43,933 bases of DNA from a virus. Taxonomy: Duplodnaviria > Heunggongvirae > Uroviricota > Caudoviricetes. The notes below the pieces were generated by a model, which saw only the letters and a list, made by a program, of their open reading frames with translations, did no database searches and was not told where the DNA came from. Of this stretch, positions 1 to 42,381 are shown one piece after another; position 1 is the first letter of the stretch; each line of letters starts with the position of its first letter. Location: IMG/VR virus record IMGVR_UViG_2711768014_000011. One strand, given 5' to 3'. A program made the translations under genes and the position numbers.

Positions 1-3000
1 ATACGCTATACCGTTAAAAATAATGGGCGGAATAATAATCTGGCGGTCAAAGTTATGATCATCGCTGATGGTGACTGTAACCGTACCGTCTGGTGTTTCC
101 GTGTTACCCCACGTACCGACTTTTTTCGGGAAGGCTTTTGATACAGCTTTAACGAAATCCCCTCTGACCTGGGTCGCCTCCAGCATGCCCTTAATCGTAC
201 AGTTCTGGTTAATCGTGACATTGTTGAGCGTTCCTGAGTTCGCATTCACACTACCACTGATATCCGCATTTTTAGCGGTCAGCTTTCCGTCTGATGTCAG
301 GGAAAATACCGGAGGACTGCCACCGCTGGTAATGGCGGGGGCTGTCAGGCGCTTCAGGAACACGTCGTTCATGAATATCTGGTTGCCCTGCGCCACAAAC
401 ATCGGCGTTTCATTCCCGTTTGCCGGGTCAATAAACGCGATACGGTTAGCGGCAACCAGAAACTGGCTCAGTTTGCCTTCCTCCGTGTCCTCCATGCTGA
501 GGCCAATACCCGCGACATAATGTTTGCCGTCTTTGGTCTGCTCAATTTTGACGCCCCACATCGCATTCCATTTATCGTTAGCGTCCTTCCACTCTTTCGA
601 AAACTCATCCAGTCTGCTGGCGTTATCCTCCGTCAGATCAACTTTTTCCAGCAGCTCTTTACCGAGATGGGATTCGGTTATCTTGCCTTTGAAAAAATCC
701 AGGTAACCTTCCGCATCATCGCTCGCCCGACCGACGGCCTCCACGAATGCCGATTTGCCAACGGTGTTCACACTGCGGATATAAAAGTAATAATCATGGC
801 CCGGTTTGATATTGATACTGGCGGCTATCCAGTACAGCCCCGCGCCAAGGTAGCGGGCTGTGGTTTCAACCTGCCTGATATCGGTAATCCGCGTTTCCGA
901 GAACCAGAACTCAAACTGTACCGTCGGATCATAAACCGCAAGATGCGGCGTGGCAGTTATCTGAAAATAGCCCGGCGTCAGCTCAATCCGCGACGGTGCT
1001 ACCGGTGCGGCAATCCTGAACGATACCGACGCCGGATCGCCCTGCTGTCCCCAGGCATTTACCGCCCGGACTGTCAGCGTGTACCGTCCCAGCGCCAGTT
1101 GCGTGAAGCGGTATGTGGTTTCCGTCGTCCGGGCCGTGCTGACCAGCCGCTCACTGCCGTCATCCGCTGCCACGGTCAGGCGAAGCATAAAGCTCACCCC
1201 CTTCACCACCTTCGGCGTGTCCCAGCGCGCCAGCACCTGATATTCCCCGCTGTCTGCGGTGACTTCGGCAGTCAGGTGCTGCACCGCTGGCGGCGTGACA
1301 CCATTCACCGTGCCGCTCTGGTCGCCGTCAAAGTGCGCCCCGTTATCCACGATGGCTTCTTTTTCCGGTACATGCTGCACGGCAGTGATGGCATACGTGC
1401 CGTCATCGTTCTCACGGATACTCACACAGCGGAACAGGCGCTGGCGCAACGTCGGCAGCTTCAGCCCCCACACGCTGTATTCAGCAACGCCGTCAGGAAC
1501 ACGGCTCACTTTCACCTTCACGCCGTCGGTGACGGACTGAACCTCCACGCTGACCGGATTGCCACTTCCGTCAACCAGGCTTATCAGCATGGTACCGGAG
1601 GATGGCAGCGTGATTTCACGGTCGAGCGTCAGCGTCCGGGTCTGGCTGTTTACCGCCAGCACGCGCCCGCCGATGCTGATACCCGCATAGTCATCATCAC
1701 AGATTTCAATGACATCGCCCGGCACATGGCGAAGCCCTTCTGCGCCCACGCTGAAGTCCACGGTCTGCGTTTCCAGCAGTTCTGTTTTAATCAGCCACAG
1801 CCCGGCGCGGTGTGCCTGCCCCCGGCTGGTACAGCCAAAAGCATCCATCTTCGTGACGTTACGACCGTAACGGGCAATGGCCTGCGTATCCTCCACAAGC
1901 TCTGTCGCCGTCTCCCAGCCGTTATCCGGGTCAATCCAGTTCACCTCAACGGCATTATGGCGGTCNNNNNNNNNNNNNNNNNNNNNNNNNNNNNNNNNNN
2001 NNNNNNNNNNNNNNNNNNNNNNNNNNNNNNNNNNNNNNNNNNNNNNNNNNNNNNNNNNNNNNNNNNNNNNNNNNNNNNNNNNNNNNNNNNNNNNNNNNNN
2101 NNNNNNNNNNNNNNNNNNNNNNNNNNNNNNNNNNNNNNNNNNNNNNNNNNNNNNNNNNNNNNNNNNNNNNNNNNNNNNNNNNNNNNNNNNNNNNNNNNNN
2201 NNNNNNNNNNNNNNNNNNNNNNNNNNNNNNNNNNNNNNNNNNNNNNNNNNNNNNNNNNNNNNNACACCAGGCCATGTTGTTGCTGTATGCTGGTTTTAAC
2301 GTTCCGTCCCAGATACCGCTGTATTGTCGCGTCTGCGGGTTATAGTTCGACGGCACCTGCAGAATGCGCCCGCGAAGATGATAATTACGACTCACCTGCT
2401 GGCTGCCGAACTGCTCCGAGTCCACCTGTACGCCGACCAGTGCAGTGTTCGGGTAGCACTGTTTCACATCGATGATTTCGGTGTATGACGACCAGAGCGT
2501 TTTGTTCTGCAGCTGGTCTGTGGTGCTGTCCGGTGTCATCCTGCGCATCCGGATACTGAACGGGCGCGGAGGCAGGTTATCCACCACCACCGAGACCAGA
2601 TACTGCGAGGTGGTTTTGCCCTTAATGGTGATGTCTTTTTCCGTCACCCAGCCACCGTTACGCTGTATCTGAACCAGCAGGCGGACTTCCGACGGATTCC
2701 TGTCTCCCTTTGAGGTGGTTTCCACCAGTGCCTGTACACCGAAGGTAAAGCGCAGACGGTCGATGTTTGCCGACGTGATGGTCCGGGTGATCGGCGTGTC
2801 ATATTTCACTTCCGTACCCAGCACCGTCTCGGAGCCGGAGGATTCAAACCCCTCCGGCGGTGACTGCTCCTGCTCACCTGCCCGGAACACCACCGTGACG
2901 CCGGAGATGTTGGTATTCCCCTCATTGTCCAGCACCGGCGTACTGTTCAGCAGCACGCTTTTTAATCCATCCACCGGACCTTCAACCGGCCCTTCACTGA

Positions 3001-3148: not shown

Positions 3149-3854
3149 TCAGCGACCAATCACCACAACCTGACCACCATCCCCTTCGTCTGCCGTGCTG
3201 ATCTCCTGAGAAACCACACGTGACCCCACGCGCATTTCCCCGTACAGNNNNNNNNNNNNNNNNNNNNNNNNNNNNNNNNNNNNNNNNNNNNNNNNNNNNN
3301 NNNNNNNNNNNNNNNNNNNNNNNNNNNNNNNNNNNNNNNNNNNNNNNNNNNNNNNNNNNNNNNNNNNNNNNNNNNNNNNNNNNNNNNNNNNNNNNNNNNN
3401 NNNNNNNNNNNNNNNNNNNNNNNNNNNNNNNNNNNNNNNNNNNNNNNNNNNNNNNNNNNNNNNNNNNNNNNNNNNNNNNNNNNNNNNNNNNNNNNNNNNN
3501 NNNNNNNNNNNNNNNNNNNNNNNNNNNNNNNNNNNNNNNNNNNNAAAACACACCGCCACTTTTGGCACCCGCCAGACGCGGAACGATGTGGATCACGGCA
3601 CCATTTGCCAGCGGTTCATTAAGACGGGCAGATAATTCATTTTCGCCTGCATCACGCCCGGCAATGCGCACCTGATACCAGCCGTCGCTCAGTTTCTGAC
3701 GAAATGCCGGGAGCTGTGTGGCCAGTGCCCGGATGGCTTCGGCCCCCGTTTTCACACGAAGGTCGATGCGGCGGCCAAATCGCTGCAAATCCCCGTAAAG
3801 GCAGATGCGTGCCATGCCCGGTGACGCCAGAGGGAGTGTGTGCGTCGCTGCCAT
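3149..3854 (-). CDS. I: Tail assembly protein I (lambda gpI-like); N block 3248-3544 inside
   Basis: N-terminus MAATHTLPLASPGMARICLYGDLQRFGRR and C-terminus LYGEMRVGSRVVSQEISTADEGDGGQVVVIGR match recalled lambda I; the frame changes across the N run. Confidence 0.8.
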
Positions 3855-4714
3855 TTGTCGGTATACCTCTCTCGTTTGCTCAGTTGTTCAGGAATATGGT
3901 GCAGCAGCTCGCCGTCACCACAGTAAATGGCGGCATGATTCGGCACCGATGAACCAAAACAGCACAGCAGCACATCGCCCGGCTGCGCCGTTGACAACGG
4001 CACCTGATACAGCCCTGTAGCCTCCAGATTATCCAGATAGAGATTCTGACCATTACGCCACCAGTCGTCCTCACGATGAAAATCTGGCATCTCAATTCCC
4101 GCCAGATGGTAAGCGTCCCGGAACAGCGTGTAACAGTCCGTCACCCCGTGCTCAAAGCGCCGCCCGGTGAGATGCGGCACACAGCGGAACTTGTGAATCG
4201 CCCCGCGGCAGACCAGCCACCACGACAAATCACTCTGCACCTGCAGCCGCCGGTCGGCCTCACTCAGCCAGGGCAGACCACCGGGGTGGCTGTGGACCAG
4301 CGCCACAATCTCACCCTGCATCTCTGCCTNNNNNNNNNNNNNNNNNNNNNNNNNNNNNNNNNNNNNNNNNNNNNNNNNNNNNNNNNNNNNNNNNNNNNNN
4401 NNNNNNNNNNNNNNNNNNNNNNNNNNNNNNNNNNNNNNNNNNNNNNNNNNNNNNNNNNNNNNNNNNNNNNNNNNNNNNNNNNNNNNNNNNNNNNNNNNNN
4501 NNNNNNNNNNNNNNNNNNNNNNNNNNNNNNNNNNNNNNNNNNNNNNNNNNNNNNNNNNNNNNNNNNNNNTCCGGAAATACTCCTCCGGCTCACCGGAAAT
4601 ATTCACGCAGGGAAAATATCTTTCCCCCTCCGGTGTTCTCACCACGAAGCCGCACGACTCCGCTGGCGCACATCGCCGGGCGTGCGCCAGAATCGCTGAT
4701 TCTGTCTGTGTCAT
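3752..4714 (-). CDS. K: Tail assembly protein K (JAB/MPN metalloprotease-like HSHPGG motif plus NlpC/P60-like C-terminus); N block 4328-4569 inside
   Basis: MTQTESAILAHARRCAPAESCGFVV and EIVALVHSHPGGLPWLSEADR motifs; 103-nt overlap with I start as in lambda. Confidence 0.8.
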   Translation of the reverse strand: MTQTESAILAHARRCAPAESCGFVVRTPEGERYFPCVNISGEPEEYFRXXXXXXXXXXXXXXXXXXXXXXXXXXXXXXXXXXXXXXXXXXXXXXXXXXXXXXXXXXXXXXXXXXXXXXXXXXXXXXXXXAEMQGEIVALVHSHPGGLPWLSEADRRLQVQSDLSWWLVCRGAIHKFRCVPHLTGRRFEHGVTDCYTLFRDAYHLAGIEMPDFHREDDWWRNGQNLYLDNLEATGLYQVPLSTAQPGDVLLCCFGSSVPNHAAIYCGDGELLHHIPEQLSKRERYTDKWQRRTHSLWRHRAWHASAFTGICSDLAAASTFV

Positions 4715-23815: not shown

Positions 23816-24315
23816 TGCTGACCCCACAAACAGATTTCACGCTCAATCTCACGACGAGTCATGAGACCTTTCCATTGCTTACCGCCAGCATATGTCCAGC
23901 GACGTAGCTGATCACATGCGCCTTTGATATCGCCCTGGTTTATTTTNNNNNNNNNNNNNNNNNNNNNNNNNNNNNNNNNNNNNNNNNNNNNNNNNNNNNN
24001 NNNNNNNNNNNNNNNNNNNNNNNNNNNNNNNNNNNNNNNNNNNNNNNNNNNNNNNNNNNNNNNNNNNNNNNNNNNNNNNNNNNNNNNNNNNNNNNNNNNN
24101 NNNNNNNNNNNNNNNNNNNNNNNNNNNNNNNNNNNNNNNNNNNNNNNNNNNNNNNNNNNNNNNNNNNNNNNNNNNNNNNNNNNNNNNNNNNNNNNNNNNN
24201 NNNNNNNNNNNNCCAGACCATCGTTACCACTTGGGCCAGTGATTAACACTGATGCTATAGCAATTGCTCCGCCACCAATAGCAGCAGCAACGACTTTTCG
24301 TAATGATGGAGGCAT
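23812..24315 (-). CDS. SAR endolysin (T4-lysozyme-type, RrrD-like); N block 23947-24212 inside
   Basis: N-terminal signal-anchor-release segment [34 protein letters not shown] and C-terminus [37 protein letters not shown]; start overlaps the holin stop (ATGA). Confidence 0.85.
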
Positions 24316-25756: not shown

Positions 25757-26344
25757 TTTTCCTCACATATGTCATATAGTAAAGGATTATATATACCGTT
25801 GTTTTGGACGCTCAAACAGCGAATCAGATCAAATAAAACGCACATTTGTTAACATTTACACAAAGTCTGCGTGGGATATTCTGAAAGAATATCCATAATG
25901 TGGAGAGAATCTATTGAAGTGCATGGTGCCGGGTGCCTCCCGGTGAACAAAATGTTCGTGATACCTGTCGGCGACAGAAAAGGTTAATGGTATCACCCCA
26001 CCGCACAGGGGGATTCACCATGCAGGAGTTTTCTTAGCAAACTCACTGCGCGCCCGGCAACTCCCAACCACATAAAATGCGGAGTTTGTGGCATTTATGC
26101 ATATAACTCGCAGGAATTATCTTAAAAAACTGATGTCGATCCGGATTAAAAAGAAGCAGGTCATCATCAGATGACTGGAAAAAAGGAAAACAAAAAATAC
26201 TCATCATACAGTTTTGATTGCAGGGATGAGCCTGCTATGCACAATATGCAGAATATAAGCAAGATAAAAATATGCAGGCATATTATTTCGGATCTTGTTA
26301 TTAACACAACCTTTTTAATAATCATTTGGCATACAATAAACCAG

Positions 26345-27343: not shown

Positions 27344-27630
27344 AAATGACCTTTCTTTCTCCAGATTTCTTGTGTGCGAAAAACCCCTTCAGCATGCATC
27401 AGGCGCAATTCTTCTTTGGTGTAATCGCTGGTTTTTACCCGCCCGTCGATTAGATCGTGGCATGAGCTACAGGCTATCGCCGCCTGCATATCATGTGGTT
27501 TTGTCGCTGTTCCGCACGTCCCCGCCAGCCTGTAATGCGCCAGCACAGAGGTTTCGGGATTGTGATTGCAGTAGCCAGGGATTCTGATCTGGCACATCTG
27601 GCCTTTAGCCGCTTTACGTAAATTCACCAT
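27340..27630 (-). CDS. DUF1364 / YbcO-like putative zinc-binding nuclease (nin-region protein)
   Basis: 96 aa; PETSVLAH, TKPHD and IACSSCHDLIDGR resemble recalled DLP12 YbcO; 4-nt overlap with the Q-like gene. Confidence 0.55.
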   Translation of the reverse strand: MVNLRKAAKGQMCQIRIPGYCNHNPETSVLAHYRLAGTCGTATKPHDMQAAIACSSCHDLIDGRVKTSDYTKEELRLMHAEGVFRTQEIWRKKGHL

Positions 27631-28229
27631 TACGCAAACTCCAGTAGTTGTGCGGCCACATTTTCAACTTCCTCCTGAGAGGAGAATTTACGGAACAGAA
27701 TCCAGTTCCACAGCACATTCAGTACAGATTTATAAACCTGCTGAAACTCGACTTCGTCCATATTCGCAAAAGCGATGGATTTTGCCCGACGCCCACGGCT
27801 ACCGTCCGGATAAATATGCTCGGTGTAAAATCCGGCCTGAATGGTTACCCACTCGCGGAAAGCCTCAAACGACTTTAGCAACGCCGTATCCCGGGTTCTA
27901 CGAGTCGCAACGGTGTTAAGGTATTGCTCTGCGGCATCACTCAGGGCTGGCGTGTGTTCCCGACCAACTGATTCGCACAGGTAATCAACGAAACCAGACA
28001 GCAGTTCTCGTTCGCGAGGCGTGATCGCCCCACCGACCGGAGTCCAGTAATCGAATCCCAGTTGCAGGAGTTTGAAAAAACGCTTGTGGAATGCGTAGTT
28101 ACGCACACGCTTAAAGTCTGCGTGTATCCACTCACCTATTTTGATTTGATGCAGAAAATCGCAACTCTCCGGCGTCGCCGGGAGAAGTAAACCAGAAGAG
28201 GTTTGTTTGACCAGTTGTATATGCGCCAT
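27630..28229 (-). CDS. Conserved lambdoid nin-region protein of unknown function
   Basis: 199-aa ORF, stop overlaps the next start; phage-like GC; no confident family assignment from sequence alone. Confidence 0.5.
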   Translation of the reverse strand: MAHIQLVKQTSSGLLLPATPESCDFLHQIKIGEWIHADFKRVRNYAFHKRFFKLLQLGFDYWTPVGGAITPRERELLSGFVDYLCESVGREHTPALSDAAEQYLNTVATRRTRDTALLKSFEAFREWVTIQAGFYTEHIYPDGSRGRRAKSIAFANMDEVEFQQVYKSVLNVLWNWILFRKFSSQEEVENVAAQLLEFA

Positions 28230-28509
28230 TTCTCAATCTCTCGATGGCGCAGCGCAGCAGATGCCAGTTGTTCAGGCTGACGAATAAAGTATAAATAAAC
28301 TGGCTATGGTGTAAAGCCCCACATAGCATGAACAAACACTACATATCAAATAGCTGGTACAAGGATAGAAATACGACACTTATTATTAAAAACGATTAGA
28401 TAAATTACATTTTAATGTTATGCAAAAGTTCTTTTTTATCATAACATTTCAATAAAAGCATTACAGATGCAATCATCCCGTCATCATCAATTATTTAAGG
28501 TGGTTAAAC

Positions 28510-28596
28510 ATGGAAAATAACAAGTTCGCACATCTCGCTCCTTTTTTATCCGTAATCCTTTTCGCTTGTTGTTTTATATGGGCATTATTTTTATAA
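28510..28596 (+). CDS. Candidate small hydrophobic peptide (28 aa)
   Basis: ATG at 28510 with SD AAGGTGG 6 nt upstream; MENNKFAHLAPFLSVILFACCFIWALFL has a single predicted transmembrane helix; lies in an AT-rich cargo island. Confidence 0.35.
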   Translation: MENNKFAHLAPFLSVILFACCFIWALFL

Positions 28597-28987
28597 AGTA
28601 GCCACATGATAAGTTGCTGGAATCATATTTCCCACTCAAGTCATTAACATTTGATAAGATATATCTAAAAGGACGCCTTTACATTATTTATGCGTATATA
28701 ATTTATTTATATACACAGTAAAGGTATCCTGGGAAAATATTTATCGTTAAAAAATACATCATAAATAATTAAGCTGAAATTTCAGAACACAACTAATACA
28801 CACAATAAGGTTCAGTAACAGTAATCTATGTGGACTACATCGAGATTTTTTGATTAAACTTTAATAACTTATTCCTAACACACAGAATGCATAAACTAAA
28901 AGTAAAACAAATAGTTATACGAAAAACAACCATATTTATTCTATCTTCTCCTCTAATCAACATATCAATTATGTGTTTCATAACAGC

Positions 28988-29027
28988 TTGACATAACCCT
29001 CCAAAAGATGCATTTTTAATGCATGTT
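28988..29027 (+). promoter_or_regulatory. Candidate promoter (-35 TTGACA at 28988-28993) overlapped by an NsrR-type 11-1-11 inverted repeat (29005-29027)
   Basis: AAGATGCATTT-T-TAATGCATGTT; the left half-site equals the recalled NsrR consensus half AAGATGCATTT, the right half matches its reverse complement at 9 of 11; sits 16 nt upstream of the yeaR-like start. Confidence 0.45.
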
Positions 29028-29042
29028 TTGGAGGAGGTGGTT

Positions 29043-29381
29043 ATGACACACAAGAGAATTCCTAAAGATTGGGTAATCAAACGCTCAACTCCGTTCTTCA
29101 CAAAAGAGAACGTACCTTCAGCGTTATTAACACATCATAATACAGCAGCAGGTGTTTTTGGGCAGTTGTGCGTAATGGAAGGCACTGTAACATATTATGG
29201 TTTTACTGATGAGAATGCTACTGAACCGGAGATAAAAGTAGTCATTAATGCTGGCGCTTTTGCAACAAGCCCACCACAATACTGGCACCGTGTTGAACTA
29301 AGCGATGATGCTCAGTTTAATATTAACTTTTGGGTCGCTCCAGACTTTTCGGGCGAAAAAGTCTATAGCACCAAAAAATAG
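29043..29381 (+). CDS. YeaR-like DUF1971 family protein (cupin-like); plus-strand moron
   Basis: 112 aa from ATG 29043 (SD GGAGGAGGTGG); RSTPFF, AAGVFGQLCVMEGTVTYYGFTDENATEPE and FNINFWVAP parallel the recalled K-12 YeaR pattern. Confidence 0.65.
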   Translation: MTHKRIPKDWVIKRSTPFFTKENVPSALLTHHNTAAGVFGQLCVMEGTVTYYGFTDENATEPEIKVVINAGAFATSPPQYWHRVELSDDAQFNINFWVAPDFSGEKVYSTKK

Positions 29382-29410
29382 ATGATCATATTAAAAATGC
29401 TTTAACAGTC

Positions 29411-29447
29411 AGACCCGGCAGGGCTATCCCCGACGGGTCTCATTTTT
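29411..29447 (+). terminator. Intrinsic terminator downstream of the yeaR-like gene
   Basis: GACCCGGCAGGG-cuau-CCCCGACGGGUC (two mismatches) followed by UCAUUUUUG. Confidence 0.5.
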
Positions 29448-29599
29448 GTAAATATATTGGTTCTACATTGACAGGAGACTTCAACCATAAGAAGTAATCT
29501 GAATACTTGAGCAATAAATTTACTTAAGATTAATGAGCGCACCTTGCCGGACAAAGATAAACCAAGGTAACACCTTTTTTCTAGCCAGTATGTAATCAA

Positions 29600-29818
29600 T
29601 CAGAAAGCCGCTCCATAAGAACAACAGCAAGACAATAAATTGCCATTACAGCCGCAATAGCCAGCGCACATTTGAGAACCAGCACGACAACCCCCTGTAT
29701 TAGACGCACACCAGTCCTGATAAATATGAGGCTGTCTCGTCAGTGATTCAATACAACTATTGGGTATAGTTTCTGTGATTTTATTCTGTAGAAATGGAAC
29801 ACAACAACCAGTCACCAC
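29600..29818 (-). CDS. Candidate cysteine-rich small protein (about 72 aa, 13 Cys)
   Basis: SD AAGGAA followed by tandem GTG codons at 29824/29818/29815; product ...VTGCCVPFLQNKITETIPNSCIESLTRQPHIYQDWCASNTGGCRAGSQMCAGYCGCNGNLLSCCCSYGAAF; directly downstream of the two-gene cassette on the same strand. Confidence 0.3.
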   Translation of the reverse strand: MVTGCCVPFLQNKITETIPNSCIESLTRQPHIYQDWCASNTGGCRAGSQMCAGYCGCNGNLLSCCCSYGAAF

Positions 29819-30001
29819 CAGCACTTCCTTAAATGCTCTAAGTCAGAAACAAGCCAACATTTTAGTCCGCTTTGAGCGATCTGCAGACATTGCTAGCAGC
29901 CTTCTGTGTGAATTCTCAGGGAGCAGGTCGGCATAGCATCACGTTGAGGCTCTTACCCTACTTGTTCACACCAACCCTAACTCCACAGACTGATTCATAA
30001 A

Positions 30002-31003
30002 TTAGTAATCTGCGTGTTTCGCACTTTTCAGAAATGCTTTCATATTTTCATTAGGTCGCTCAATTTCGAAGTTACTTCCATATAACTCTTGTAATTTTGG
30101 CCATAACTTACTTAATAACCCTCTCCTGCGATAAAATGGATGTATCCAAACGGTAGATAGGTACGGAGAATTTGCATTTGAATTGTTTATTGTGACCAGC
30201 CCAACTAAACATTGTCGATAACCACTATTATCCATTGATTGTATTTCTTCGACGAATGGATACGCGATTACATCAGTCCAACCATGATCGGTTGTATCCC
30301 ATTGCATTCCGTCATGACATTCCTTCGACTGATAGCGGCGTAAAGCTACACACGCGAGCTTTTGCCAATCTGGAGAATTAATTGTGATCTCTTCATCGTA
30401 TGACGCGCCTATTGGAGCGGGTATTGGTCTGATTAATCCAGCATGGCATTCATCATAGAACTTCATGTTTCCCTCAGAAACGTTGTGTACGTTGGGTTGC
30501 TCCATGTGTGCGCCATTCAAAAATAGCTCTGATAGTAGTGTATCTACACTGTAATCTTTATTGATTATTGTCGGCTTAGAGTTTTTCTTATTAAGGCCGC
30601 GAGTAACGATTTTTTGATCAATGTTAACAACATGGAATAATCCGTCGGGGAGGCTAGCGAACCACGATGGGGCATCGGACCAGAATAGCATGCCTTTTGT
30701 ACTTCTTAAGAGTTTAATTAAGTTAATACAAGCTTCTTCACTAGTCTTGCCGTTGATGCGAAGTATGTTAGGACTAAAGTAATATTCATCCATATCAGGG
30801 AATGCAGCTTCGCAAAACTCCTGTACATAATTTAGCACCTGGATTCTACAGAGATCATCATAGCTGGTAATAACTAAGGGGGTATCTTCATTACTATTAT
30901 GATTATCAATAATGCAATCTATAGCGAGACTTACTGCTTTGCGTATCACTTCAGTTGAATCTAACGACTCTAAAAATTTTGTCTTTCGTGTGCGAATATC
31001 CAT
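30002..31003 (-). CDS. Cargo cassette protein B: unknown function, C-terminal GNAT-acetyltransferase-like motif
   Basis: 333 aa; AT-rich; start 15 nt after protein A's stop; C-terminal LVGLVTI...YLSTVWIHPFYRRRGLLSKLW resembles GNAT motif A (V-x-P-x-Y-R-x-x-G). Confidence 0.75.
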   Translation of the reverse strand: MDIRTRKTKFLESLDSTEVIRKAVSLAIDCIIDNHNSNEDTPLVITSYDDLCRIQVLNYVQEFCEAAFPDMDEYYFSPNILRINGKTSEEACINLIKLLRSTKGMLFWSDAPSWFASLPDGLFHVVNIDQKIVTRGLNKKNSKPTIINKDYSVDTLLSELFLNGAHMEQPNVHNVSEGNMKFYDECHAGLIRPIPAPIGASYDEEITINSPDWQKLACVALRRYQSKECHDGMQWDTTDHGWTDVIAYPFVEEIQSMDNSGYRQCLVGLVTINNSNANSPYLSTVWIHPFYRRRGLLSKLWPKLQELYGSNFEIERPNENMKAFLKSAKHADY

Positions 31004-31018
31004 GTATGACCTGCGCTA

Positions 31019-32041
31019 TTAAAATTCATGAATGAACGGTTTGTCATCTGGTTGCAAAATGGTGGTTTTATTCGTTGCTACATTTAAACTGTTGTAGAGC
31101 ATAATTGCCAGGTTCGATGCATTTTCAATCAGCGTTTCAAGATCCTGGTCTGTAATCACTACGAGGTTCCCTTCTTTATCCTTTCCACCACGATGCACTA
31201 AGTGATTTCGATTGAGGGTTGCCAATTCAATAGCTTCTATCGGACAGTCTTTTTGTACTTTTATATCGAATGTAGCTTCATAGCGGTCGATTACCTTTTT
31301 AGTGCTATGCCAGCTTGCACTGATCAAGTGTTCCTTGATTGACCTGATTAGCTCTCCCCTAATTTTCTCGATGGGTTCACCCTTGAAAGGCAACGCAGCA
31401 ATATCTTTGCTTACTTTAAATTCAGTCTTACCTTTTTCTATACAATTGGCTATGTAGACATCATCTTTCTCTATAGAATTAATGAATAGCTCAACATAAA
31501 GCGTTTCCAAAGCTGTAATAACATTCGTGTAGAGCAAACTAAGCAAGTGGTTTTTTTGCTGTTGTTCAGTTTTATCTTTTGCAAGTTTTTTTATTTTATC
31601 GATATTATCAATGAATTTTAAATACGGATTACCGGAAGACGTTACAGCGTCGTAGATATCATCATCGTACCAATCATCTATATTATTTGAGTTTCCAGAC
31701 CAGTCAAAACATTGTGTTTGTAATTCATCTACTAATTCCTCAATATACTCAGATTTAACATATTGACCGAAGATGGATTGTAGTTCTTCGCTCGCATCAT
31801 ACGGCCCGCCATATATGTAAGCATAGCCACCTTCTCTACTTTCATACGGACAAGCATTTGCCGGATCTTCAAAGTTTTCAAAGAACCAGTTTTTCATTAC
31901 TTCGAGTTGATCTTTTTTGCTTATGTATTTTAAAGATTTTAGTGGAACTTTCTTTCCATTAACCTCGAAAACAATTTTCACGATGTAACGCTCCCTTGTA
32001 TCAATTGCGCAACTATTATACCACAGCGAAATACAGGGCAT
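31019..32041 (-). CDS. Cargo cassette protein A: unknown function, C-terminal HEPN-like Rx4H motif
   Basis: 340 aa from ATG 32041 (SD AAGGAGG 6 nt upstream); alternative GTG start at 31981 behind an extended -10; AT-rich; C-terminal ELATLNRNHLVHRGG contains R-N-x3-H. Confidence 0.75.
   Translation of the reverse strand: MPCISLWYNSCAIDTRERYIVKIVFEVNGKKVPLKSLKYISKKDQLEVMKNWFFENFEDPANACPYESREGGYAYIYGGPYDASEELQSIFGQYVKSEYIEELVDELQTQCFDWSGNSNNIDDWYDDDIYDAVTSSGNPYLKFIDNIDKIKKLAKDKTEQQQKNHLLSLLYTNVITALETLYVELFINSIEKDDVYIANCIEKGKTEFKVSKDIAALPFKGEPIEKIRGELIRSIKEHLISASWHSTKKVIDRYEATFDIKVQKDCPIEAIELATLNRNHLVHRGGKDKEGNLVVITDQDLETLIENASNLAIMLYNSLNVATNKTTILQPDDKPFIHEF
32015..32023 (-). promoter_or_regulatory. 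Candidate extended -10 (TGGTATAAT) inside the 5' end of the cassette A ORF
   Basis: Minus-strand TGGTATAAT lies 34 nt upstream of GTG 31981, which has SD AAGGGAG; a TTGACA hexamer also occurs at 32137-32142 in the upstream gap but without a matching -10. Confidence 0.3.
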
Positions 32042-32179
32042 AACCTGCCTCCTTAAACTAACATACCATGAGCCAGCAATGTCCGCTATTGGCACAAAGC
32101 GGACAACCACGCTAGCTCTCCCCTGTGCCAGAAAAATGTCAATTTACATATGAACTAATGCTCTTTGATCTAGTAACGT

Positions 32180-33395: not shown

Positions 33396-34138
33396 TTACT
33401 TCTCAATTCCTGGCTGGACGACATTCGGACGCCAGCTCTCCCAGTTAAAATTCACCCATCGCCCGNNNNNNNNNNNNNNNNNNNNNNNNNNNNNNNNNNN
33501 NNNNNNNNNNNNNNNNNNNNNNNNNNNNNNNNNNNNNNNNNNNNNNNNNNNNNNNNNNNNNNNNNNNNNNNNNNNNNNNNNNNNNNNNNNNNNNNNNNNN
33601 NNNNNNNNNNNNNNNNNNNNNNNNNNNNNNNNNNNNNNNNNNNNNNNNNNNNNNNNNNNNNNNNNNNNNNNNNNNNNNNNNNNNNNNNNNNNNNNNNNNN
33701 NNNNNNNNNNNNNNNNNNNNNNNNNNNNNNNNNNNNNNNNNNNNNNNNNNNNNNNNNNNNNNNNNNNNNNNNNNNGATAGCTGCCGCTAAGTGGTTCTTC
33801 CCGGTACCAGGTTTTCCGCTGAACGCAAAATTTGTACACCCGGTCATCAGTTCATCAGCGATGGATTTCGCCTGACTCAACGCGTATCGCTGCGCTTCGT
33901 TCTGCACCTGGTAATTCGAAAACGAGCATTTGCGGTGCAATGGCTGGATGCCAGAGCGATTCAGAATTTTTTCCACCCGCAACTGACGATTCTGACGGTT
34001 GATCTCCTCACAACGTTTCTGGCCTTCGGAAAGTTGCCACTCGCGCCACTCCGCTACCGTCTTGAATGGCGCGGTTACATGTGACGGGGCCAGTCTGCGG
34101 ATACGTTCAAGAACGTCGCCTGTCGCAATATTTTTCAT
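33396..34138 (-). CDS. ydaV: DnaC-like replication ATPase YdaV (helicase loader); N block 33466-33775 inside, 3' end frame uncertain
   Basis: N-terminal 121 aa visible with Walker [17 protein letters not shown]; size with the masked block is about 246 aa, close to K-12 YdaV. Confidence 0.7.
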
Positions 34139-42192: not shown

Positions 42193-42381
42193 ATGTATAA
42201 AATTACCGCCACTATTGAAAAGGAAGGTGGCACTCCTACTAACTGGACAAGATATTCAAAATCTAAACTAACGAAATCAGAATGCGAAAAAATGCTCTCA
42301 GGTAAAAAAGAAGCAGGCGTTTCCAGAGAGCAGAAAGTAAAACTGATAAATTTTAATTGCGAGAAACTTCAGTCCTCGTGA
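42193..42381 (+). CDS. rcbA: RcbA (YdaC)
   Basis: MYKITATIEKEGGTPTNWTRYSKSKLTKSECEKMLSGKKEAGVSREQKVKLINFNCEKLQSS; SD GGAGGTG 3 nt upstream; between ralR and xis as in K-12; longer upstream starts are possible. Confidence 0.65.
   Translation: MYKITATIEKEGGTPTNWTRYSKSKLTKSECEKMLSGKKEAGVSREQKVKLINFNCEKLQSS

What the first reader, a model, noticed from the sequence alone, without database searches (positions are those of the whole stretch)
28988..29447. Plus-strand yeaR-like (DUF1971) moron behind a near-consensus NsrR-type operator
A 112-aa ORF (29043-29381) is transcribed against the surrounding phage genes. It has its own strong SD, a -35-like TTGACA and an intrinsic terminator (29411-29447). 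Its sequence follows the YeaR/DUF1971 pattern. Immediately upstream lies an 11-1-11 inverted repeat, AAGATGCATTT-T-TAATGCATGTT, whose left half equals the NsrR half-site consensus as I recall it. Chromosomal yeaR is a known NsrR-regulated, nitric-oxide-responsive gene. A prophage-borne copy with its own NsrR operator would be a nitrosative-stress-inducible lysogenic-conversion gene.
Basis: partly seen in the sequence, partly recalled or inferred. Interest (0 to 1): 0.5.

Follow-up and report, generated by a model that had tools for sequence, protein, structure and literature searches.

The report
Prophage stress gene under NsrR control
An E. coli prophage carries a small self-contained gene, related to a Salmonella nitric-oxide-resistance gene, whose promoter sits under a near-perfect binding site for the host's nitric-oxide sensor NsrR; the phage probably gives its host an extra nitric-oxide-induced stress protein, a tidy but not surprising case of a known kind.

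Summary
The 112-aa ORF (29043-29381, +) is a DUF1971 protein (Pfam E 2.3e-26). It lies opposite to the flanking nin/Q genes of a Rac/Qin-like lambdoid E. coli prophage. It has a consensus -35, a strong SD and a hairpin plus T-run terminator. The 11-1-11 palindrome at 29005-29027 scores 26.8 bits on an NsrR matrix built from published CFT073 sites, second only to ytfE. Chance expectation is about 3e-6 per window.

One correction: the protein is only 41% identical to E. coli YeaR. It is 79-82% identical to the chromosomal Salmonella, Kluyvera and Klebsiella orthologues. The Salmonella one sits at nhaB-dsbB, where STM1808 lies, and STM1808 is a published NsrR-regulon gene.

About 50 enterobacterial orthologues keep a strong NsrR site with the same -35/operator geometry, while their flanks are unconserved. 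The cassette is in 457 of 5426 complete E. coli genomes, always on prophage. E. coli has no diverged chromosomal copy.

Most likely mechanism: NsrR covers the -10 and start site, and NO relieves repression. Binding, induction and phenotype are untested. Verdict: a new member of a known kind, of moderate interest.

The parts
28988..28993 (+). -35 hexamer TTGACA (consensus)
   Evidence: Read in the sequence. It is invariant in all 39 prophage and phage copies examined. A -35-like hexamer ends 11-12 nt before the operator in Kluyvera/Leclercia (TTTACA), Klebsiella (TTGACG) and Citrobacter (TTGCCT) orthologues.
29011..29016 (+). Predicted -10 hexamer CATTTT, 17-bp spacer, lying inside the left half of the operator (operator positions 7-12). 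Inferred, not mapped.
   Evidence: Chromosomal orthologues show the same geometry: TATTTT, CATATT or TATATT at 17-18 bp from the -35. An alternative -10, TTTAAT at 29015-29020, would have a 21-bp spacer. Either hexamer lies inside the operator.
29005..29027 (.). NsrR-type 11-1-11 operator AAGATGCATTT-T-TAATGCATGTT
   Evidence: It scores 26.8 bits on a PWM from Table 4 of PMC5320621. That ranks second to ytfE (30.3) and above hcp, hmp and yeaR. P is about 7.5e-11 per position. No shuffle gave a match. The site is conserved in 52 unique orthologue promoters at 1.65 bits per column, against 0.5 in the flanks.
29030..29040 (+). Shine-Dalgarno region GGAGGAGGTGG, ending 2 nt before the ATG
   Evidence: Read in the sequence. 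A GGAGG motif is conserved at this position in orthologues.
29043..29381 (+). DUF1971 protein gene, 112 aa, STM1808-type. The true start is 29043, not the in-operator ATG at 29019.
   Evidence: Pfam PF09313, E 2.3e-26. It is 79-82% identical to enterobacterial and Vibrio orthologues, which start MSH/MTH. PDB 3DL3 matches at E 3.5e-59. H32 and H82 are invariant. dN is 0.12-0.14 with synonymous sites saturated against chromosomal orthologues. The CDS is the least diverged segment between prophage lineages: 4.4% against 10-15% in flanking segments.
29411..29447 (+). Intrinsic-terminator-like hairpin (stem 29411-29417 / 29434-29440) followed by a T-run at 29443-29447
   Evidence: dG is -17.7 kcal/mol, z = -2.85. 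On the minus strand the hairpin has no U-tail. The divergent lineage (L002) has a different sequence that still forms a hairpin of -18.9 kcal/mol, followed only by a short 4-U run.
28600..28987 (.). AT-rich (28-31% GC) non-coding leader that always travels with the cassette. Function unknown. It marks the approximate left limit of cassette-specific DNA.
   Evidence: The full spacer is found in 462 genomes, close to the 457 that carry the gene. Only its first ~360 nt (28240-28600, about 76% identity) occur in another ~390 genomes that lack the gene. GC profile.

Best explanation
This is a moron: a self-contained transcription unit carried in the cargo hot spot between the replication genes and the nin/Q genes of a Rac/Qin-like lambdoid prophage of E. 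coli and Shigella.

It encodes an STM1808-type DUF1971 protein, a small protein whose histidines H32 and H82 are conserved. E. coli does not otherwise have this gene on its chromosome.

The promoter was inherited together with the gene from an enterobacterial chromosomal orthologue. It has a consensus -35 (TTGACA) and a weak -10 embedded in the left half of an 11-1-11 NsrR operator.

Proposed mechanism:
1. In a lysogen growing without nitrosative stress, the host [Fe-S] repressor NsrR occupies the operator. The operator covers the -10 and the predicted start site, so RNA polymerase is excluded.
2. Nitric oxide damages the NsrR cluster and NsrR leaves the DNA.
3. The promoter fires independently of the phage lytic circuit. 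It has no Fur-box match above chance, no NarL heptamers and no FNR-like site nearby.
4. The short mRNA stops at its own terminator.
5. The protein adds to the host's NsrR regulon and presumably improves tolerance of NO, as reported for Salmonella STM1808.

Shown here: gene family, prophage context, anatomy, strength of the operator, its conservation across species, purifying selection, and distribution.

Inferred: NsrR binding, NO induction, expression in lysogens, the exact -10 and start site, and any benefit to the host.
For: - Family and orthology. The Salmonella orthologue sits after nhaB-dsbB, the position of STM1808. STM1808 is stated to be in the NsrR regulon and to have a role in virulence (PMC7527575).
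- Operator strength: 26.8 bits on a PWM from the ChIP-seq-derived CFT073 site list, second only to ytfE. The left half equals the best half-site of ytfE and hmp. P is about 7.5e-11.
- Phylogenetic footprint: nearly all Enterobacteriaceae orthologues have a 24-30-bit site ending 15-27 nt before the ATG. The operator carries 1.65 bits per column against about 0.5 in the flanks, and the -35 spacing is fixed.
- NsrR as an NO-sensitive [Fe-S] repressor: PMC5320621.
- Moron features: opposite strand, own promoter and terminator, 41% GC against 48-52% in the nin genes. It is absent from related prophages, which carry IS421/hokD/relBE at the same spot.
- On real phages: three cultured phages and 37 IMG/VR contigs carry it.
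- Distribution: 457 of 5426 E. coli genomes, all at least 95% identical, with no diverged (<95% identical) copy detected. The sampled copies are prophage-borne.
- No other regulator sites: the best Fur-box match is at chance level (11/19), there are no NarL heptamers, and there is no FNR-like match near the promoter.
- Selection: dN is much lower than dS, and the CDS is the most conserved segment.
Against: - There are no expression, binding or phenotype data for this gene. The held literature contains nothing on it.
- The -10 is weak (3 of 6), and the generic promoter scan did not call a promoter.
- About 400 bp of 28-31% GC DNA lies just upstream, so H-NS silencing is possible.
- The commonest prophage allele has a degraded left half-site (AACACGCATTT, 20.7 bits). 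Tight NsrR control may therefore not be the selected state in most lysogens.
- The biochemical function of DUF1971 proteins is unknown.
- The STM1808 phenotype rests on one paper that I could not read here.
- Vibrionaceae orthologues mostly lack a proximal site.
Confidence: 0.75

Rival explanations
1. The cassette mainly serves the phage. In one version, NO-triggered transcription from this promoter runs head-on into the early rightward transcript that must cross it to reach the DUF1367, DUF1364 and Q genes, so host nitrosative stress modulates lytic development. In another version, the strong operator, once amplified by phage replication, titrates scarce NsrR and derepresses the whole host NsrR regulon.
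For: The gene is convergent with the flanking early and nin genes and lies between the replication module and Q. In every copy it is physically linked to the DUF1367-DUF1364-Q block, while the other side varies. Repressor titration by NsrR sites is a documented effect (cited in PMC5320621). Substitutions between alleles cluster in the operator.
Against: The transcript has its own terminator about 65 nt after the stop codon, so antisense overlap with phage genes is minimal. The coding sequence is under purifying selection and is the best conserved segment, so the protein matters. Chromosomal orthologues have the same promoter and operator without any phage. The linkage to Q may simply reflect the position of the cargo hot spot.
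Confidence: 0.08
2. The cassette is a silent or decaying hitch-hiker. The operator is an inherited relic and the promoter is too weak or is H-NS-silenced in E. coli, so the gene contributes nothing in lysogens.
For: The -10 is weak and the promoter scan found no promoter. The leader is very AT-rich. The commonest allele has a degraded half-site. A few genomes have IS insertions or truncations nearby.
Against: The ORF is intact in 453 of 457 genomes at 95% identity or more. TTGACA, the SD and a terminator-like hairpin are kept in both prophage lineages. Substitutions between lineages are mostly synonymous, and the CDS is less diverged than its surroundings. All operator alleles still score 17.7-28.6 bits, within the range of the published sites, which include hmp and yeaR.
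Confidence: 0.12
3. The palindrome is an operator for a regulator other than NsrR, such as another Rrf2-family protein or a phage repressor, or it is a chance AT-rich palindrome.
For: No binding experiment exists for this site. The PWM was built from predicted sites in one strain.
Against: The site has 2 mismatches to the ytfE palindrome, and the left half is identical to the ytfE and hmp half-site with ChIP-seq support. Chance expectation is about 3e-6 per window. The same motif lies upstream of chromosomal orthologues in non-phage contexts in many genera. No other such site occurs in the prophage.
Confidence: 0.03

Closest known systems
Salmonella enterica STM1808 (DUF1971 protein of the NsrR regulon; Karlinsey et al. 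2012, Mol Microbiol 85:1179, cited through PMC7527575)
   Same: Same orthogroup: 79% identity over the full length, with H32 and H82 conserved. It is a single gene with a strong NsrR 11-1-11 site between the -35 and the start codon. STM1808 is reported to be NsrR-regulated and to have a role in virulence. From memory, not checked here: it is a zinc protein whose H32 and H82 are needed for NO resistance.
   Different: STM1808 is a core chromosomal gene at nhaB-dsbB. This copy is on a mobile prophage in a species that lacks the chromosomal gene. Here the operator ends 15 nt before the ATG, against 27 nt in Salmonella. The -35 is a consensus TTGACA here, against TTGTTT/TTGCCT there. The phage gene has a lower GC content (41%).
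E. coli yeaR-yoaG operon (YeaR, PDB 3BB6)
   Same: Both are DUF1971 proteins. YeaR is NsrR-repressed and strongly induced under nitrate/NO conditions (160-fold in CFT073). Both have an 11-1-11 operator near the promoter.
   Different: Identity is only 41%, so they are paralogues. There is no yoaG downstream and no NarL heptamers upstream. From memory, yeaR needs NarL activation (Lin et al. 2007). The operator here (26.8 bits) is stronger than that of yeaR (22.4 bits).
PDB 3DL3, 'tellurite resistance protein B' (structural-genomics entry; I recall it as Vibrio fischeri, and the source organism was not shown by the tool), and the N-terminal domain of TehB (PDB 3M70)
   Same: 3DL3 matches at E 3.5e-59 over residues 1-111, so the fold of this protein is effectively solved. 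The N-terminal domain of TehB is homologous.
   Different: This is not a TehB. It has no methyltransferase domain and scores 49 bits against the NCBIfam TehB cut-off of 303. The RefSeq labels 'TehB family protein' and 'tellurite resistance' are over-annotations.
Morons wired to host regulators (general concept: PMC3594210, 'The moron comes of age'; from memory, examples include Fur-regulated stx1 and PhoP-regulated sodCI on Gifsy-2)
   Same: It is an independent promoter-gene-terminator unit in a temperate phage. It is expected to be expressed in the lysogen under control of a host transcription factor, and it is expected to benefit the host.
   Different: In the held library I found no report of a moron under NsrR control. 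Here the regulatory site was demonstrably inherited with the gene from chromosomal orthologues rather than evolved on the phage.

Membership tests
Pfam DUF1971 (PF09313) | Full-length match to the family HMM above the gathering score | tested here: met
   92 bits against a cut-off of 23.1, E 2.3e-26, covering profile positions 1-80 of 80.
STM1808-type DUF1971 orthogroup | High full-length identity to the single-domain ~112-aa proteins of Salmonella, Klebsiella, Kluyvera and Vibrio, clearly closer than to YeaR | tested here: met
   73-82% identity to 10 orthologues, against 41% to YeaR. PDB 3DL3 matches at E 3.5e-59, against E 1.6e-24 for 3BB6 (YeaR).
STM1808-type DUF1971 orthogroup | Conserved His32 and His82 (from memory of Karlinsey 2012, the reported metal ligands) | tested here: met
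   H32 and H82 are invariant columns in alignment A1 and are present in the window protein. Their role was not verified from a paper I could read.
YeaR (yeaR-yoaG operon) orthologue | Orthology to E. coli YeaR, with yoaG downstream and NarL-dependent promoter elements | tested here: not met
   41% identity. No downstream ORF precedes the terminator. No NarL heptamers lie in 28900-29045.
TehB tellurite-resistance methyltransferase | SAM-dependent methyltransferase domain following the DUF1971 domain | tested here: not met
   The protein is 112 aa. NCBIfam TehB scores 49 bits against a cut-off of 303 and matches only profile positions 11-106 of 289.
NsrR regulon (direct target) | 11-1-11 inverted repeat matching the NsrR matrix | tested here: met
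   26.8 bits, second to ytfE among 26 published sites. P is about 7.5e-11.
NsrR regulon (direct target) | The site is placed so that a bound repressor occludes the core promoter | tested here: inconclusive
   The operator spans the predicted -10 (either candidate) and the predicted start site, and the geometry is conserved in orthologues. The transcription start is not mapped.
NsrR regulon (direct target) | NsrR binds the site in vitro or in vivo | not testable with these tools
   This needs EMSA or ChIP. CFT073, the strain with ChIP-seq data, has no such site in its published list.
NsrR regulon (direct target) | Derepression in an nsrR mutant and by NO | not testable with these tools
   No transcriptome of a strain carrying the cassette was found.
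Phage moron / lysogenic-conversion gene | Independent promoter and terminator, orientation or composition unlike the neighbours, and absence from otherwise related phages | tested here: met
   Promoter, operator and terminator. Opposite strand. GC is 41% (28-31% in the leader) against 48-52% in the nin genes. Related prophages with the same DUF1367-DUF1364-Q block carry IS421/hokD/relBE instead.
Phage moron / lysogenic-conversion gene | Expressed from the prophage in the lysogen and changes the host phenotype | not testable with these tools
   This requires RNA-seq or a reporter, plus NO-tolerance assays of a lysogen against a deletion mutant.

The most novel reading that the evidence does not exclude
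The operator, rather than the protein, may be the evolving and possibly phage-relevant part. Prophage copies with identical proteins carry distinct operator alleles, and substitutions are packed into the 58-bp promoter/operator/SD segment: 5 of 58, against 8 of 1811 in the surrounding DNA (p = 2.6e-5). One allele moves toward the perfect NsrR consensus and loses a TATAAT. The commonest allele loses two key left-half positions and keeps TATAAT. This would be consistent with selection tuning how tightly a phage-borne gene is coupled to the host NO sensor. At the extreme, the NsrR-gated convergent promoter (or NsrR titration by replicating phage DNA) would link prophage development or the whole host NsrR regulon to nitrosative stress.
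Probability: 0.1. Interest if true: 0.7.

Novelty: new member of a known kind. Interest (0 to 1): 0.42.

Why it matters
If confirmed, this is a clear example of a temperate phage moving a complete piece of a host stress regulon between species. The gene, its promoter and the operator for a conserved host sensor travel together. About 8% of E. coli strains would gain an NO-induced protein that Salmonella, Klebsiella and Citrobacter encode chromosomally and that, in Salmonella, is reported to contribute to virulence. It would add a strain-variable member to the E. coli NsrR regulon, which matters for gut inflammation, poultry and urinary-tract niches. It also offers a natural allele series of NsrR operators for studying how repression strength evolves. 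It does not reveal a new mechanism.

Tried and rejected
- YeaR copy: rejected. Identity is 41%, with no yoaG and no NarL sites.
- TehB or tellurite resistance: rejected. There is no methyltransferase domain.
- Fur co-regulation: Kluyvera/Leclercia orthologues have a Fur-box-like palindrome (13-17 of 19), but the window's best match is 11 of 19, which is chance level.
- FNR site near the promoter: none found.
- Known RNA families in 28200-30050: none credible.
- Anti-phage defence role: no PADLOC hit.
- Generic promoter and terminator scan: it called neither element on the plus strand because of the weak -10 and the large loop. This was resolved by comparative alignment and folding.
- Primary papers: Karlinsey 2012 and Lin 2007 are not held. 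Statements about STM1808 zinc binding and H32/H82, and about NarL at yeaR, therefore rest on memory.
- Literature: searches linking NsrR or DUF1971 with prophage or morons found nothing relevant.
- A second, diverged copy in E. coli: none found with sensitive blastn.

Full report
**1. The observation**

The sequence contains every element at the stated coordinates.
- The -35 hexamer TTGACA lies at 28988-28993.
- The palindrome AAGATGCATTT-T-TAATGCATGTT lies at 29005-29027. Its halves are complementary at 9 of 11 positions.
- GGAGGAGGTGG lies at 29030-29040.
- The ORF runs from ATG 29043 to the stop at 29379-29381, giving 112 aa.
- A hairpin (29411-29417 paired with 29434-29440) is followed by CATTTTTGT.

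The hairpin folds at -17.7 kcal/mol, z = -2.85, and only 1 of 200 shuffles folds as well. On the minus strand the same hairpin has no U-tail. The generic scan called neither a promoter nor this terminator. The -10 is weak and the loop is large and interrupted.

Both neighbours are on the minus strand: DUF1367 at 27630-28229 and a 333-aa ORF at 30002-31003. RefSeq annotates exactly 29043-29381 as a DUF1971 protein. The longer ORF from ATG 29019 starts inside the palindrome and has no SD. Orthologues begin MSH/MTH, so 29043 is the start.

**2. What the protein is**

Pfam DUF1971 matches at E 2.3e-26 over the whole model. The TehB equivalog matches only its N-terminal domain, at 49 bits against a cut-off of 303, so this is not a TehB.

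The protein is 41% identical to E. coli K-12 YeaR. It is 73-82% identical to single-domain proteins of Salmonella, Kluyvera, Leclercia, Klebsiella, Citrobacter, Vibrio and Aliivibrio. PDB 3DL3 matches at E 3.5e-59, YeaR (3BB6) at 1.6e-24 and TehB (3M70) at 5.4e-11.

In Salmonella the orthologue follows nhaB and dsbB. By my memory of the LT2 gene order, that is the position of STM1808. [quoted passage not shown] 2012. I could not open that paper. My recollection that STM1808 is a zinc protein needing H32 and H82 is therefore unverified. Both histidines are invariant in the alignment and present here.

**3. Where it is**

The window is a lambdoid prophage of E. coli.
- The identical region in E. 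coli O78 strain 3 is flanked by sieB, ydaF, ydaT/U/V, then the cargo region.
- After the cargo come DUF1367, DUF1364 (YbcO), DUF1133 (Q-like antiterminator), holin, RrrD, the lysis protein, trkG and terminase.
- The Rac sRNA RalA is at 42199-42377.

Three cultured temperate phages (vB_EcoS-666R9, -673R7, -613R10) and 37 IMG/VR contigs carry the gene.

In complete E. coli genomes the cassette occurs in 457 of 5426. It is nearly always single-copy and always at least 95% identical. Sensitive blastn finds no diverged second lineage. E. coli therefore has this gene only through the prophage.

In all copies the gene is joined on its left to the same block: AT-rich leader, DUF1367, DUF1364 and Q. 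The right side varies after 29378 or about 29880. The full leader is present in 462 genomes. Only its first ~360 nt (28240-28600) occur in another ~390 genomes. In one of these, the same nin/Q block is followed by IS421, hokD, relBE, ydfV and flxA instead.

GC content is 28-31% in the leader and 41% in the gene, against 48-52% in the nin genes. At the sequence level this meets the definition of a moron in a cargo hot spot.

**4. The operator**

I built a symmetrised 23-bp matrix from the 26 distinct 11-1-11 NsrR sites in Table 4 of PMC5320621. That table was derived from NsrR ChIP-seq in CFT073.
- The window site scores 26.8 bits. It is second only to ytfE (30.3) and above hcp (24.1), yeaR (22.4) and hmp (19.5), although those sites trained the matrix and this one did not.
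- The next best site in the 43.9-kb window scores 12.4 bits.
- The exact tail probability is 7.5e-11 per position, or 8.7e-10 with the local AT-rich background.
- A search with the perfect palindrome finds only this site, at 2 mismatches, and none in 100 shuffles.
- The left half, AAGATGCATTT, is the top-scoring half-site in that paper. It is present twice at ytfE and once at hmp.

**5. Comparative evidence**

In 80 loci from species-representative genomes, almost all Enterobacteriaceae orthologues have a 24-30-bit site ending 15-27 nt before the ATG. Most Vibrionaceae orthologues have none.

Anchored on the site, 52 unique promoters carry 1.65 bits per column in the operator, against 0.52 and 0.50 in the 40 nt upstream and 15 nt downstream.

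A -35-like hexamer always ends 11-12 nt before the operator: TTTACA in Kluyvera and Leclercia, TTGACG in Klebsiella, TTGCCT in Citrobacter, and TTGACA here. This places the -10 at operator positions 7-12 with a 17-18-bp spacer. The hexamer is TATTTT, CATATT or TATATT in those groups and CATTTT at 29011-29016 here. The predicted start is near 29023, inside the right half-site.

The phage copy therefore inherited its promoter and operator from a chromosomal ancestor. That ancestor resembled the Kluyvera/Leclercia type, which has the same short spacing between operator and ATG.

The Fur-box-like palindrome that sits upstream of the -35 in that group (13-17 of 19) is absent here; the best match is 11 of 19, which is chance. 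There are no NarL heptamers and no FNR-like site near the promoter. With a consensus -35 and no activator sites, NsrR is the only evident control.

**6. Selection**

Against chromosomal orthologues, dN is 0.12-0.14 while synonymous sites are saturated.

Between the two prophage lineages the CDS differs at 4.4% of positions. The regulatory segment, leader and DUF1367 gene differ at 10-15%, and the terminator region at 44%. Coding differences are mostly synonymous, 8 against 3.

The divergent lineage has a different downstream sequence that still forms a hairpin of -18.9 kcal/mol, followed only by a short 4-U run.

**7. Operator alleles**

The copies fall into four operator alleles.

| Allele | Sequence | Score (bits, uniform background) |
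|---|---|---|
| A (this window) | AAGATGCATTTTTAATGCATGTT | 27.8 |
| B | AACACGCATTTATAATGCATGTT | 20.7 |
| C | AAGGTGCATTTATAATGCATGTT | 26.6 |
| D | AAGGTGCATTTATAATACATGTT | 25.7 |

Identity classes map one-to-one onto the E. coli genome search. Allele A is in about 26 of 457 genomes, and B is the majority.

A and B encode identical or nearly identical proteins. They differ at 5 of 58 positions in the promoter/operator/SD segment, against 8 of 1811 elsewhere (Fisher p = 2.6e-5). Relative to C and D, allele A gained the consensus A at position 4 and lost a TATAAT. Allele B lost G3 and T5 of the left half.

Whether this reflects selection on repression strength or a small recombination patch cannot be decided here.

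**8. Mechanism, and what is inferred**

NsrR is an [Fe-S], NO-sensitive repressor (PMC5320621). The best-supported model has three steps.
1. NsrR covers the -10 and start site and blocks transcription.
2. NO relieves the block.
3. A short monocistronic mRNA ends at the terminator.

The product would add an STM1808-type protein to the host's NO response, independently of the phage lytic circuit. Binding, induction, the start site and any phenotype are all inferred.

Rivals:
- A phage-centred role, through convergent transcription against the transcript heading for Q, or through NsrR titration during replication.
- A silent relic.
- A different regulator binding the palindrome.

**9. Novelty**

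The family, the regulator and the moron concept are all known. RefSeq calls the protein DUF1971 or 'TehB family', and PHROG 34268 lists it with unknown function. Searches of the held literature found nothing that links this prophage gene, or any moron, to NsrR.

I rate it a new member of a known kind. It is moderately interesting and easy to test.

Noticed in passing
window 29596-29685 (-): A 29-aa hydrophobic ORF (VLVLKCALAIAAVMAIYCLAVVLMERLSD) with a GTG start and an SD-like purine run. It is about 92% conserved in phages Tritos, Evi and mEp460 and in IMG/VR locus L112. In Tritos and L112 it lies directly upstream of hokD. In this window hokD is missing, and homology ends near 29584, next to the DUF1971 terminator. 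It may be an unannotated small membrane peptide or part of a hok-type locus.
   Followed up: partly
window 30002-31003 (-) and 31019-32110 (-): Two adjacent cargo genes of unknown function. The 333-aa protein has a weak C-terminal GNAT match. The 363-aa protein has a weak HEPN/RES N-terminal-domain match. Both fall in PHROGs of unknown function and have no PADLOC hit. They are absent from most related prophage copies. They could be a toxin-antitoxin or defence pair.
   Followed up: partly
window 28985-29042 compared with L085-L106 and others: Substitutions between prophage copies that encode identical proteins are concentrated in the promoter/operator/SD segment: 5 of 58 against 8 of 1811 (p = 2.6e-5). 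This gives four operator alleles of different predicted strength. The window's near-consensus allele is the rare one.
   Followed up: partly
L005-L026, about 64-66 nt upstream of the ATG: Chromosomal orthologues in Kluyvera, Leclercia, Pseudescherichia, Silvania and Buttiauxella carry a conserved Fur-box-like palindrome (for example GATAATGAGATTCATTATC, 13-17 of 19 to the consensus) just upstream of the -35. This suggests dual Fur and NsrR control there. The phage copy lacks it.
   Followed up: partly
window 28230-28987: About 760 bp with no credible ORF or Rfam match, at 28-31% GC. The right ~400 bp always travel with the DUF1971 cassette. The left ~360 bp are shared at about 76% identity with prophages that lack the gene. 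Its function is unknown; it could be an H-NS target.
   Followed up: partly
window 42199-42377 (-) and 25867-26053 (-): Rfam matches above gathering score: RalA, the antitoxin sRNA of the Rac RalR/RalA system (225 bits), and STnc100 sRNA (86.6 bits) downstream of the Q-like gene.
   Followed up: no
L066, L069, L076 (Neptunomonas, Parendozoicomonas) and the Vibrionaceae loci: Marine orthologues mostly lack an NsrR-type site next to the gene. However, some loci have 22-24-bit sites 1-2 kb away, presumably in front of other genes. The regulatory link may be specific to Enterobacteriaceae or may be organised differently there.
   Followed up: no
window 1966-2263, 3248-3544, 4330-4569, 23947-24212, 33466-33775: Five runs of N (masked stretches) in the window. 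In the identical E. coli O78 locus, an IS2 copy is annotated where the last run lies.
   Followed up: no
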